From: Octopus vulgaris
Taxonomy: Eukaryota
NCBI GenBank assembly: GCA_951406725.2
Contig: OX597822.1
Coordinates: 108,686,001 to 108,750,000, forward strand
Length of the DNA stretch: 64,000 nt
Direction of reading: 5' to 3'
Below, one piece after another: positions 149 to 55,254 of the stretch. Under the pieces are notes generated by a model. The model made no database searches. It saw only the letters and a program-made list of their open reading frames with translations, and was not told the DNA's origin. The position numbers and the translations under genes were made by a program. Each line of letters opens with the position of its first letter. Position 1 is the stretch's first letter.

Positions 149-418
149 TATATATATATATATATATATATATATATATATATATATATATATATATATA
201 TATATATATATATTGAAGTAGATAAATGAATTATCTTATTACGGATAATTCAAATGATAACCGATACCTGGGTAGCAAAAATCACAACAGAAAAGGCACG
301 GTTGAGGTTACGACCATGGGGCCTAAAATCCGTGCCTTTGTGCGGAAAATTGAAGTTTATATATTTAGTGTAGGAAGAAATGGAGCTGAACGAAGATTTA
401 ACAAAATTCCTTTTTATT

Positions 419-504
419 ATTTACTACTTATGTTTCAAAGGCTGCAAAGTCTCTAATTCGGATTTAATAAGGAGTCCATTTTGCAGCCTTCTCTTCAGGA
501 AAAT
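419..504 (-). ncRNA. Type I hammerhead ribozyme (left arm)
   Basis: Minus strand reads attttc-CTGAAGA-gaaggctgcaaa...tttgcagccttt-GAAA-cataag-TA-gtaaat. The core is intact and stem II is long; stems I and III each carry one mismatch. Confidence 0.75.
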
Positions 505-742
505 CCAGGAACTTAATTCTCCAACAAAATGCACAGCAAGCTTTTCAACAAACGCTCACGAGGAGCCCATGGAATAAATGGCACAAACTGTCTATCTATA
601 TGCCTTGACGCCAGGCTGGGTGAAAGCAGACGAGAAGGTCCGTTGAGATAGATAGACAGTTTGTGCCATTTATTCCATGGGCTCCTCGTGAGCGTTTGTT
701 GAAAAGCTTGCTGTGCATTTTGTTGGAGAATTAAGTTTCTAG

Positions 743-826
743 ATTTTCCTGAGAAAGGCTGCAAAATGGACTCCTTATTAAATCCGAATTAGGGACTTTG
801 CAGCCTTTGAAACATATGTAGAAAAT
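743..826 (+). ncRNA. Type I hammerhead ribozyme (right arm, 1-nt core deletion)
   Basis: attttc-CTGA(-)GA-aaggctgcaaa...tttgcagccttt-GAAA-catatg-TA-gaaaat. Stem I is attttc/gaaaat, stem III is the palindrome ACATATGT, and the cleavage triplet is GUA. Confidence 0.75.
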
Positions 827-928
827 AATAAACAGGAATTTTGTTAAATCTTCGTTCCTACACTATAGATATATATATATATATATATATATATATATAT
901 ATATATATATATATATATATATATAAAT

Positions 929-1105
929 AGGGAGAGTTTACGACAAAAACAAAAGACGAAGACAGGTGGTGTACAAAACAAACAGATATATTAGTATAAC
1001 ACTCAGGAATAGAAAAGTAATTTTACGTTTCGAGTCTACGCTCTTCTACAGAAAGGGACATTGAAAACAAGCAGAGAAAACATGTGTGTAGTGGCTAACG
1101 ATCTC
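929..1105 (-). mobile_element. PLE-associated non-autonomous repeat with degenerate minimal HHR (1021-1054)
   Basis: Minus strand reads ttt-CTGTAGA-a-gag-cgtaga-ctc-GAAAC-GTA-aaa. It abuts (TA)n on one side and (CT)n(TA)n on the other. The core is non-canonical (A6 to U). Confidence 0.5.
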
Positions 1106-1222
1106 TCTATCTCTCTCTCTCTCTCTCTCTCTCTCTATATATATATATATATATATATATATATATATACGTATATATATATATATATATATATATATAT
1201 ATATATATATATATATATATAT
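1106..1222. repeat. (CT)n(TA)n microsatellite
   Basis: Directly visible. Confidence 0.95.
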
Positions 1223-51758: not shown

Positions 51759-52029
51759 ACAGATTCCAATAGTGTATGCTTGCATGTACATATGAATGAA
51801 ATGATCACCATGGATATATATCGCAAACGAACAGTATCTCTCTCTTTAAACTTATCTCATACCTAAGTTTACAATTACAAAGATGAACATAATATATTTT
51901 CTCTTTTGGAATCTTCTTCATATTGTACGAATTTTAATTGTAATCTTGTATTGCGGAAGAGATTGTCGAAATTGTCGTCACACTCTTCTCTGAAATCAGT
52001 GAAATGTTTATCCAAACTACAATACACCT

Positions 52030-52328
52030 GGCACTGCGTCGGGTATGACGACAAGTGCTCCAGTTGATCCGATCAACGAACAGCCTGTGTGGGGAAATTC
52101 ACGTTGATGTGGCTGAGCACGCCATAGACGCATGTGCCCTTCACGTAGATTTCAGAGAGATTCAGCGTGACACAGTGTGACGAGACTGACCTTTGAAATA
52201 CAGGCACTACTGATTTTCGCCAGCTGAAATAAAATCTCTTCGTGAAGGACACAATGCGACTCCGGGAACTGAACTTACGACCTTGCGATCGGGAGACGGA
52301 TACTCCTAAGAACTATGCCACGCGTCTT
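52030..52328 (-). mobile_element. Diverged tRNA-SINE related to 25498-25881
   Basis: gttgatccgatcaacgaacagcctg...gattcagcgtgacacag...tttgaaatacagg is shared with 25530-25680. Confidence 0.85.
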
Positions 52329-54046
52329 CTCAGAATATATCTTAATTGCGTTTAGCTACGATTTCATTCTCCTCTTGCTAAAGTATTGAAGTGGAAGCCA
52401 CTAAGCAATTGCTAAAGATCATAGATTCTAAATAAACATTTTCCTTTTTCAACAGGTTTACCAAATTCTCATTCAATTCCATAGTACATATTCAGGCATA
52501 GTTGTAGTAAAAATAAAAATTATAGAAGTCTTTCTGTAATGCTGTAATTTTCCTCAACTGTTAAATATTTTAGTTGATTTTTAATGAACTAACGTTGACA
52601 CGAACTCTTATGTCATTAATCCATTAATACTAACACATTGTTAAAAGCTATTACTTAACAGTCAGTAATTATTTATTGCATGGGTCTTTAAGGCTGTAAA
52701 AGTCTAACTAGATACAACTATTGAAGACAACACAATGTTAATCGAAACATAATTCGTTTCTATTTTCTATGCTTTTATAGGAGAAAGCTTCTAACATATT
52801 TTATTATTAGTAAACTTCATCAATAACTCTTCAAAGTCACTCGCTGTAACTTAAGACTTGAGAATGACAAAGTTTAAGAATTTAAGCTGTCTGGAGAGAA
52901 AAAACTGAAGGTGTTTAGAGAGTCAATGCCGTAGCAACCTAATGCAAGTTCTTAAGCTTGTAAATGTAGGTGCCACAGTGTTATAAATACAAGATAATGC
53001 ATCAGTAGAATGTTCAACATTTATCTTCCTGGTTTATCTACCTTGAAGATTCTCATATAACTCGTAATGATAAAAGATCACCAAAAACCAAATATAAAAT
53101 AAATTTATCCCACGCGGAATACAAAGTTTTTCTGTGTTTAAATAACATTTGTATGGTGTCAAAAATTAAACCTGAATGTGTGCGTTTTTTGGTACTGATT
53201 TTTAGCGTAGCAAAATTTTCATGGTTTAGATAATTCAAATGTCTATCAAACAATAAGACATCAGCATTTCCCATACTTTACTAACATTTGACAAGTCATT
53301 AACCGACATATTTACACAGCAGTGACTGACATATCAGAGAACTACATACTATTACCAATAGTACAGTTTATTCATATGTGTTCCGAGAACATTGGAATGC
53401 CGACCATTTCGTTGGTTGTAAATGCGAGTTCAATTTCCATATCAACTTATTAGTTCGAATTTGACAAAGTTCACATGCAACGGGTGAAGTTAACGTCATT
53501 ATAGAGTTATTATAGAGTCGTCTGCCAGACGTAGATTTCGTCTGTATTCAAGTTTGTATATTGTAGATGACAGCTCTTTCGTAGGAATAATGTGATATCC
53601 CAATTAATCACTATTTATCGTGCCGTGACGTGCAGACAGAATATATTGGTAAAATATAGATTTTAAAGCGTATGTGATTTGATACTAAGAGGGTAAAAAA
53701 AAAATGCGTATGTGATTTTGATATTAAGGCGATAACAAAAATAAAAATCGCATGAGATTTTGATACTAAGTGCATAACGAAAAATACTAAATAGGGAAAG
53801 GAAAGCAGTTGATTATCATTAAAAGATAAATTTCTAAATATTGGGAATTAATAATAGTTGAAATTGGTTGTCTACTCATGTTCGATAAATCACTTCTCCC
53901 TGTCTGGCTTACCTATTAACTATACAATCTAACATGTGTTCCTTGTGGTTGTAAAGCTAAAAAATAATGCAGTTCTATATTTAAGAGATGATGAGTTATG
54001 TATATTATTTACATTTGACGGGTATTTTTCCTCATGTTGATGTTTT

Positions 54047-54092
54047 AACACAATGTTTTGGCTGATATATCCGCCAGCCCTCATCAGGTGCC
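54047..54092 (-). ncRNA. Degenerate minimal hammerhead (left arm)
   Basis: Minus strand: ggcac-CTGATGA-g-ggctg...cagcc-AAAAC-ATT-gtgtt. G12 and the stem III G are mutated, in a CpG-decay pattern. Confidence 0.55.
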
Positions 54093-54444
54093 TTGGGGAA
54101 ATTTCGAACCTGGGTTCTCCTTCCTAAGGTATTTTTCGATGTTATTATTATTATAGAAATTATTATTATTTTTCAGGTCACTGCTTGGTATCGAACTTGG
54201 AATCTTGGGGCTGGTAGCCCACGCTCTTAACCGCTACAGGTATATGGTGTAGAAGTTAAGAGCACGGGCTACTAACCCCAGGAATCCGAGTTCGATTCCA
54301 GGAAGTGATCTGAATAATAATAATAATAATAATAATAATAATAATAATAATAATATTAATAATAATAATAATAATAATAACGATAATAATAGTAACTTCG
54401 AAAAATACCTTAGGAATGAGAACCCAAGTTCGAAATTTTCCCAA

Positions 54445-54490
54445 GACACCTGATGAAGGCTGGAGGGTATATCACCCGAAACGTTGTGTT
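54445..54490 (+). ncRNA. Minimal PLE-type type I hammerhead (right arm)
   Basis: gacac-CTGATGA-a-ggctg...caccc-GAAAC-GTT-gtgtt. Stem I gacac/gtgtt; palindromic AACGTT stem III; stem II has one mismatch relative to the left arm. Confidence 0.7.
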
Positions 54491-55254
54491 AACAAACAAG
54501 ATGAGAACAAATATCCGTCAAATGTAAATAATGTAAAATATTAATAATCCCCTGATCGTCTTAAACAGCAGATGCACAACTGTAAAATTGTGTGATGCTC
54601 AATACCCTTACCATTTCAAATCTTCATTTCAAATATATTTTCGGTGGTGTGGTGTTGATTCGTTTAGCAAGAGAAAAACATTATCTAAACTGCTGGACTA
54701 AGATTTGTTTTGATTGTGATATAGATTACCTATATATATATATAACCCTGTTCCTACATAGTGGATAACGCAATTTGATTCTCATCTATAAAGTAACATT
54801 TAAGTTACTTAAATTACAAAAGGAAGCGAAGTAAAAATATTAAGGCAGGAGTCTTCACGCTTTGCGAAGCATGCTGTGAAAGGAAGTTGCGACCAATGTT
54901 CTCATTTCACACTCTGCTCCCATTAAAAAACAATTACTATATTGTTAATGAAGTTTGCAACGCACTTCGCGAAAAAAGGATGACAGGAATGTCAATGACG
55001 GAACCCCTCTTTACCAGTGCAGTGTTCCATCAAAACGGCGATGGTGTAATATAGCCGAAAGAAATTAAATTTGTCCTTGAATTGTAGCAAATACTACTCG
55101 ATTGCGCTAAATGAAAAACGAATCAATCTATTTATATACAACTGATCTTTCCGTATATCATGCATGCCATCGCAAAATATTTGCATTACTAGACTACATT
55201 TTTGAGGTAATCTATCTGATATGTTGATATAGTAAAATATCTAAAACCAGGTTC

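What the first reader, a model, noticed from the sequence alone, without database searches (positions are those of the whole stretch)
214..54575. A microsatellite-targeted, head-to-head hammerhead retroelement system recurring in three unrelated families
Seen: three sequence-unrelated non-coding elements (214-870, 35394-37720, 53969-54575) share one architecture. Each has two HHR-bearing copies joined 5'-to-5' so the ribozyme-sense strands point outward. In the first two, both 3' ends fall directly into (TA)n. A fourth TA-adjacent element has a degenerate HHR (1021-1054). PLE N-terminal, RT and GIY-YIG relics lie in the same window (22050, 42420, 46750). Established: Penelope-like elements carry type I HHRs, form tandem and inverted terminal structures, and are the proposed mobilisers of animal non-LTR retrozymes. 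Inference: a PLE enzyme cuts (TA)n and primes reverse transcription from both broken ends on ribozyme-processed RNAs, leaving palindromes. This would give an octopus-wide family of ribozyme-bearing dsRNA sources.
Basis: partly seen in the sequence, partly recalled or inferred. Interest (0 to 1): 0.88.

Follow-up and report, generated by a model that had tools for sequence, protein, structure and literature searches.

The report
Penelope insertions built from both ends
Three different ribozyme-carrying repeats here sit as head-to-head pairs in which one arm carries a terminal "tail" and the other lacks it, which is the known footprint of Penelope-type jumping genes and likely means their enzyme copies RNA from both cut DNA ends at once, also when it moves passenger RNAs.

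Summary
The three head-to-head hammerhead elements are real but differ in nature. 214-870 is the truncated 3' end of an autonomous Neptune-type Penelope-like element (PLE), with an intact 904-aa ORF elsewhere in the genome. 35393-37721 is a young 485-nt tandem retrozyme with five hammerheads. 53970-54535 is a SINE with a tRNA-like head. Only the first two target (TA)n; the SINE does not (2 of 40 ends) and has 8-14 bp target duplications. Head-to-head pairs, one-sided tails, TA bias and hammerheads are published PLE features, and this scan noted a similar case in another genome. What I did not find in print: each family has two fixed 3' ends, and all 84 classifiable two-armed insertions pair one of each (none the same; 11 unclassifiable). 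Arms are often not nested, which argues against fold-back. Best reading: a PLE enzyme primes both target strands at two internal RNA start sites in one event, and PLE machinery also moves the retrozyme and SINE. Ribozyme cutting shapes only the retrozyme's 5' ends. No partner enzyme was found for the retrozyme or SINE; dsRNA production is untested.

The parts
214..650 (-). Family 1 (F1) long arm: 3' end (pLTR) of an autonomous Neptune-type PLE, from about -226 to +211 nt relative to the HHR cut; carries the 144-nt tail; ends in (TA)n 149-212
   Evidence: (94% to the intact copy L140)
651..870 (+). F1 short arm, from -172 to the +67-type end (with a small deletion), ending in (TA)n 870-925
420..504 (-). 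F1 type I HHR, left copy (core intact, stems I/III mutated)
744..829 (+). F1 type I HHR, right copy (short deletion in the core)
926..1085 (-). Fourth abundant short repeat with a minimal HHR-like motif (1021-1054); its CUGUNGA core is shared by most relatives
22080..22230 (+). Relic of the N-terminal coding region of a Penelope/Poseidon-like PLE
35393..36864 (-). Family 2 (F2) retrozyme, left arm: 3.0 units of 485 nt, 3' end at the short site (+129/131), into (TA)n; HHRs at 35512-35618, 35996-36102, 36481-36587
36861..37721 (+). F2 retrozyme, right arm: 1.8 units, 3' end at the long site (+237; 106-nt tail), into (TA)n; HHRs at 36908-37014, 37393-37498; 4-nt overlap at the junction
42485..42700 (+). 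Relic of the RT thumb of a Penelope/Poseidon-like PLE
53970..54237 (-). Family 3 (F3) SINE, tailed arm (+84 end): tRNA-like head, (AAT)n, minimal HHR at 54047-54092 (core mutated), tail of about 30 nt
54230..54535 (+). F3 SINE, untailed arm (+53 end): A/B-box head at about 54240-54300, (AAT)n, minimal HHR at 54445-54490

Best explanation
These are head-to-head insertions of three different hammerhead-bearing RNAs, likely made in single events in which a Penelope-like enzyme cuts both target strands and primes reverse transcription from each cut end at a different one of two fixed internal start sites. Shown: each family has two 3' end points (F1 +67/+211, F2 +131/+237, F3 about +53-59/+84 from the HHR cut); two-armed loci carry one of each; arms meet directly at variable 5' points; F3 pairs are framed by one target duplication; F1 is the end of an intact RT-EN element on the same strand. 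Inferred: an enzyme dimer holds the two start sites, the two cDNAs grow toward each other, and they are joined by microhomology or templated end-joining. Inferred: F2 is a non-LTR retrozyme and F3 a Pol III SINE, both moved in trans by PLE enzymes, F2 by a TA-cutting Neptune-like one and F3 by one without TA preference. The ribozyme does not make the primed 3' end; in F2 it likely makes the 5' end of partly cleaved multimeric RNA.
For: One-long/one-short pairs: F2 28 of 28 classifiable, query neutral as to end type, 0.5^28 if independent (39 loci: 28 mixed, 3 odd, 8 single); F1 16 of 36 loci, all mixed, plus 9 more among 30 full-ORF loci; sister retrozyme F2b 8 of 22 loci; F3 18 of 30 loci; 4 in 390 kb of unselected DNA; 1 diverged F2 copy. 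No same-end pair, and no convergent pair in F2. F3 flanks share 8 nt or more in 14 of 20 two-armed loci against 1.6% of 380 mismatched pairs. Non-nested arms: the untailed arm reaches further 5' in L144 (-3143 vs -929) and L146 and carries the whole ORF in L154, L163, L174. F1 arms differ by 0.020 against 0.047 between loci; all four overlaps over 500 nt are closer than any other locus and share 4-5 private changes. F2 private changes recur in both arms at the window locus, L086 and L096. F2 junctions overlap or gap by -16 to +11 nt. Head-to-head joints appear in short-read contigs of independent runs. In vitro, an Anolis PLE cuts and extends both strands, starts at two internal sites that bound the tail, is predicted to be a dimer and does not need HHR cleavage (PMC11167929).
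Against: No enzyme or RNA intermediate was observed. No autonomous partner sharing sequence with F2 or F3 was found. F3 arms are no more alike than random copies (0.084 vs 0.081, p=0.63), so a single RNA template is not shown there; arm likeness in F1/F2 could also come from gene conversion. PMC11167929 saw no difference in start site between strands in bulk and no homology between RNA start and target, whereas the F1/F2 starts are UA-rich like the target. Loci were the best-scoring hits, and the F1 and F2b queries fixed one end type. Many loci are single-armed (F2 8 of 39, F3 11 of 30, F1 18 of 36, some with only 1.5 kb of flank). Eleven two-piece loci have a non-canonical end. F2b and F3 classes were counted by eye.
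Confidence: 0.7

Rival explanations
1. One priming event plus self-priming or fold-back (on the cDNA or on an antisense RNA) makes the inverted arm, as proposed for rotifer Penelope elements.
For: Proposed in PMC3846280. It would explain the high arm-to-arm identity. A few junctions are near-symmetric (L083, L088, L096).
Against: Fold-back makes one arm a sub-segment of the other. In L144, L146, L154, L163 and L174 each arm holds sequence the other lacks. It gives no reason for the second arm to stop at a fixed second site. F2 junction phases are mostly far apart.
Confidence: 0.15
2. Both ends are primed, but on two separate RNAs or in two sequential steps; the long/short rule comes from an asymmetric complex or from endonuclease trimming of one end after copying.
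For: F3 arms share no excess variants. PMC8557442 ascribes the tail to EN-mediated resolution. In F2 the two arms often hold different numbers of units even when both stop near a cut site (L072).
Against: F1 and F2 arms share locus-private changes. In vitro the tail ends match RT start sites (PMC11167929).
Confidence: 0.12
3. The pairs are independent insertions stacked in one TA tract, or fold-back artefacts of long-read assembly.
For: These elements do pile up in TA tracts (L066, L095/L219, L146).
Against: No TA between arms; strict end pairing; single target duplications; arms differ by 2-12% and in their 3' ends; many distinct joints in short-read contigs from other studies.
Confidence: 0.03

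Closest known systems
EN+ Penelope-like elements, Neptune clade (structure per Craig et al. 2021, PMC8557442; Arkhipova et al. 2013, PMC3846280)
   Same: RT with C-terminal GIY-YIG, HHR in the pLTR, partial tandems, an inverted 5'-truncated copy head-to-head, a tail at one end, (TA)n bias, an asparagine-rich insert between RT and EN.
   Different: The tail is 144 nt (30-40 bp in the papers). The F1 clade lacks the Cys linker before GIY-YIG that 107 of 108 scored proteins carry yet targets TA. The long/short pairing is strict, where the papers say 'often' or 'optionally'.
Poseidon element of Anolis carolinensis, PAc (Frangieh et al. 2024, PMC11167929)
   Same: Two internal RT start sites bounding the tail, both strands cut and extended, uncleaved RNA used as template.
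   Different: The main text does not treat inverted arms or per-event pairing of the two sites. Start sites here are UA-rich and match the TA target; PAc's are AC-rich and not homologous.
Animal non-LTR retrozymes (review PMC7761336; bioRxiv 10.64898/2026.07.22.740005)
   Same: F2 and F2b are non-coding tandem repeats with one type I HHR per unit, dispersed, up to 14 units per arm.
   Different: The PLE link in these papers rests on co-occurrence and pLTR homology. Here the arrays carry the PLE integration footprint itself. 5' ends cluster at the cut site, which fits linear, partly cleaved templates better than pure rolling-circle copying. Circular RNA was not tested.
Schistosome Sm-alpha / Sj-alpha SINE-like elements (as described in PMC2770079)
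   Same: tRNA-related SINE carrying a hammerhead, high copy number.
   Different: F3 has a minimal HHR, a PLE-type tail of about 30 nt, head-to-head pairs and 8-14 bp target duplications. Sequence relation to Sm-alpha was not tested.
L1 twin priming (recalled, not read here)
   Same: Both target ends prime on the element RNA and give an inversion.
   Different: Twin priming copies non-overlapping parts of one RNA; here both arms start near the 3' end and overlap, giving palindromes.

Membership tests
EN+ PLE (F1) | Single ORF with PLE-type RT and C-terminal GIY-YIG | tested here: met
   904-aa open frame at L140:5762-8473 with RT motifs and GIY-YIG-like motif read from the translation (motif names recalled); 458 homologs. 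Pfam gave no curated hit.
EN+ PLE (F1) | pLTR with type I HHR; partial tandem and inverted 5' copies; tail | tested here: met
Neptune clade (F1) | Cys-rich (CX2-5CxxC) linker between RT and EN | tested here: not met
   Absent in P0001 and 7 more copies; present in 107 of 108 scored proteins, P0001 being among the 108. F1 is therefore 'Neptune-like'.
Neptune clade (F1) | Placement in an RT phylogeny with named clade members | not tested
   No named reference proteins were available; the label rests on recalled motifs and on the homologs' linker.
Non-LTR retrozyme (F2) | Non-coding tandem repeat with a type I HHR in each unit | tested here: met
   compensatory stem changes seen in a 10% diverged copy and in F2b
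Non-LTR retrozyme (F2) | Self-cleavage and circular RNA in vivo | not testable with these tools
   Only contigs were available and no run is on record as RNA.
Non-LTR retrozyme (F2) | Homology to the pLTR of an autonomous PLE | tested here: inconclusive
   None among 30 F1-clade loci or 39 loci of other PLE relics; other PLE families were not surveyed.
tRNA-derived SINE (F3) | tRNA-related head with A and B boxes | tested here: met
   17 of 18 full heads have an A box within 1 mismatch, 13 of 18 a B box. ARAGORN at default found 0 in 10 loci and Rfam none, so the parent tRNA is not named.
tRNA-derived SINE (F3) | Target-site duplications | tested here: met
   14 of 20 two-armed loci, 8-14 nt; not clear at the window copy (6 nt).
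tRNA-derived SINE (F3) | 3' end shared with an autonomous partner | tested here: inconclusive
   No partner found.
Microsatellite-targeted element | 3' ends fall in (TA)n above background (F1, F2) | tested here: met
   F2 69 of 70, F1 51 of 54; background 7.2%.
Microsatellite-targeted element | 3' ends fall in (TA)n above background (F3) | tested here: not met
   2 of 40.

The most novel reading that the evidence does not exclude
Penelope-like elements integrate by obligate paired priming: one enzyme dimer starts two cDNAs on one RNA, at two sites up to 144 nt apart, from the two cut target strands, so every complete insertion is a palindrome with exactly one tail. Retrozyme arrays and a tRNA-headed SINE carry this footprint, which would be direct genomic evidence that PLE machinery mobilises animal retrozymes and a PLE-dependent class of SINEs, with TA targeting that needs no zinc-finger linker.
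Probability: 0.45. Interest if true: 0.75.

Novelty: new variant of a known kind. Interest (0 to 1): 0.55.

Why it matters
How PLEs make their tandem and inverted structures is named as an open problem (PMC8557442), and what moves animal retrozymes is inferred only from co-occurrence and homology (PMC7761336; bioRxiv 2026.07.22.740005). A strict one-tail-per-insertion rule in four families turns both into specific tests: a two-ended in vitro assay with marked RNAs, and a footprint that can be scored in any genome. This genome also holds many near-identical intact PLE ORFs and a very young retrozyme, which are ready material for such assays. The general architecture is known, so the surprise is moderate.

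Tried and rejected
Rfam scan of the whole window: the 150 rows shown (of 289) were microsatellite matches, no hammerhead among them. Partner search for F2/F3 in F1-clade loci, PLE relic loci and F2/F2b/F3 flanks: none; the Neptune-like relic beside L090 has its own HHR and no F2 homology beyond a 29-nt arm. GIY-YIG at 46750: relatives show no such ORF. Same-template test in F3: negative. A predicted stem pairing the two F2 start sites appears in a local fold but not in the circular fold, and has no compensatory support; lead only. L156 looked like a long/long pair but its inverted piece runs on into the ORF start, so it is an internal rearrangement and is counted as unclassifiable. No RNA holder listed; no listed contig spans the window's own junctions, which says nothing either way. 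The B-box pattern was mis-written (0 hits) and was redone. One search repeated the F3 search and added nothing. Empty-site comparison was not possible with short contigs across TA tracts.
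Full report
1. Observation. The three palindromic elements exist at the stated places. A structure-aware scan finds five intact type I hammerheads (HHR), all in 35393-37721, and none in 100 local shuffles. The HHR copies in 214-870 and 53970-54535 are recognisable but each is damaged in this window; relatives have intact cores. 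In all three the ribozyme-sense strands point outward. The window lies in a 2.8-Gb genome; the only informatively named protein homolog is from Argonauta, consistent with an octopod.

2. What the three families are. F1 (214-870): 40 top loci. Relatives extend upstream into a GIY-YIG ORF, and an intact 904-aa RT-EN frame lies on the HHR strand at L140. Fifty related ORF loci were scored, many intact. So F1 is the truncated 3' end of an autonomous PLE. Its homologs carry the Cys linker described for Neptune, which F1 itself lacks. F2 (35393-37721): a 485-nt non-coding unit with one HHR, in arrays of up to 14 units per arm, 97-100% identical among the listed hits, which fits the non-LTR retrozyme definition. 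A sister family F2b (487 nt) has the same layout. F3 (53970-54535): a 75-nt head with A and B boxes (17 and 13 of 18 heads), an (AAT)n linker, a minimal HHR and a short 3' part; ARAGORN and Rfam do not name a tRNA.

3. Target choice. 3' ends fall in (TA)n for F2 in 69 of 70 and for F1 in 51 of 54 (the F1 count includes tandem-internal ends), against 7.2% background. F3 does so in 2 of 40 and has 8-14 nt target duplications in 14 of 20 two-armed loci, against 1.6% of 380 mismatched pairs.

4. The rule. Measured from the HHR cut, each family has two 3' end points: F1 +67 and +208-211, F2 +129-134 and +230-241, F3 about +45-59 and +84. In F2, of 39 independent loci (40 hits, one segmental duplicate dropped), 28 are two-armed with one end of each type, 3 have a non-canonical second end and 8 are single-armed; none is same-type and none convergent. 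F1: 16 mixed of 36 loci (36 of the 40 hits were held), 2 with a broken second arm, 18 with none seen. Full-ORF loci add 9 mixed pairs and one internal rearrangement among 30. F2b: 8 mixed, 4 odd, 10 single of 22 (by eye). F3: 18 mixed (one with a partial tail), 1 complex, 11 single of 30 (by eye). Unselected DNA (390 kb) gave 4 more mixed pairs among about 10 loci of these families, and a diverged F2 copy one more. Total: 84 mixed, 0 same-type, 11 unclassifiable. The F1 and F2b queries fixed one end, so there the test is that the second arm is always the other type.

5. One event, two primings. One target duplication frames both F3 arms. F2 arms meet with -16 to +11 nt of gap or overlap, some with short templated inserts. 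Fold-back predicts nested arms, but in L144 and L146 the untailed arm reaches much further 5', and in L154, L163 and L174 it carries the whole ORF while the tailed arm is the short inverted one. F1 arms are closer to each other than to other loci (0.020 vs 0.047, 17 comparisons; closest of all in 8). F2 has locus-private changes in both arms at three loci and a mosaic at L095. F3 shows no such likeness, and gene conversion is not excluded.

6. Role of the ribozyme. The primed 3' ends are not cut sites, and arms run through uncut HHRs, as in the Anolis in vitro work. In F2, 21 of 70 inner (5') ends lie 0-40 nt after the cut site (8.5% expected, p=1.9e-7). In contigs of an independent run 8 of 22 ends do (p=2.8e-4; 11 head-to-head joints among the 15 shown of 113). 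A T-rich run follows the cut site and may contribute. I infer linear, partly cleaved multimers as templates; circles are not excluded.

7. Artefact check. Short-read contigs from independent studies hold many different arm-to-arm joints for F1 and F2, so such junctions are not long-read artefacts. The window's own junctions were not shown bridged.

8. Literature, and what I saw. PMC8557442 (passages): inverted 5' copy, a 30-40 bp tail often at one end, (TA)n bias, mechanism undefined. PMC3846280 (passages): head-to-head most frequent, 8-10 bp duplications, optional tail on one inverted pLTR, N-rich inserts, self-priming proposed. PMC11167929 (parts 1-2 of 4). bioRxiv 2026.07.22.740005 (parts 1-3 of 5; supplements closed). 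PMC4209133, PMC7761336, PMC2770079, PMC8969392, PMC13282606, PMC9977147, PMC10886601 (passages). Ten searches showed no paper stating the strict pairing, paired priming as its cause, or this footprint in retrozymes or SINEs. The library lacks most subscription papers; the 2005 and 2006 PLE reviews, the 2020 retrozyme paper and Repbase entries were not read and may already hold part of this. An earlier scan note on another genome reached the 'ordinary PLE ends' reading.

9. Verdict. The architecture is real and belongs to a known kind. The single microsatellite-targeted, ribozyme-processed system is not. The value lies in the strict end-pairing rule and its extension to a retrozyme and a SINE. 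Interest 0.55.

Noticed in passing
L140:5762-8473 and L153-L176: This Neptune-like clade has an asparagine-rich stretch and no Cys linker before GIY-YIG, yet targets (TA)n; the linker had been proposed to mediate that bias.
   Followed up: partly
L164-L180: A young subfamily of intact 899-aa PLE ORFs with near-identical scores on many chromosomes, several in partial tandems; probably recently active.
   Followed up: partly
window 926-1085: Abundant short repeat whose HHR-like core reads CUGUNGA in most relatives; whether it cleaves is unknown.
   Followed up: partly
window 51571-51758: A 188-nt hairpin, 94% self-complementary, with no HHR core; nature unknown.
   Followed up: no
window 46560-47206: Repeat family (610 candidates) with no ORF seen and a weak palindrome at 47048-47206; not a GIY-YIG relic.
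   Followed up: partly
window 62938-63093 and 49476-49568 (minus strand): Weak matches (E 0.001-0.006) to the C-terminal endonuclease region of Neptune-like proteins.
   Followed up: no
L229:2235-2560 and L260-L284: Sister 487-nt retrozyme family F2b with the same two end points and TA targeting.
   Followed up: yes
L066, L095/L219, L146: Different HHR families stack in the same TA tracts, one beside the end of another.
   Followed up: no
L090 and L091: Two identical F2 loci 360 kb apart in opposite orientation on C30, a segmental duplication.
   Followed up: partly
window 6603-6999, 38484-38907, 42027-42380, 46003-46404: Copies of another abundant short repeat of about 350 nt, without HHR.
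   Followed up: no
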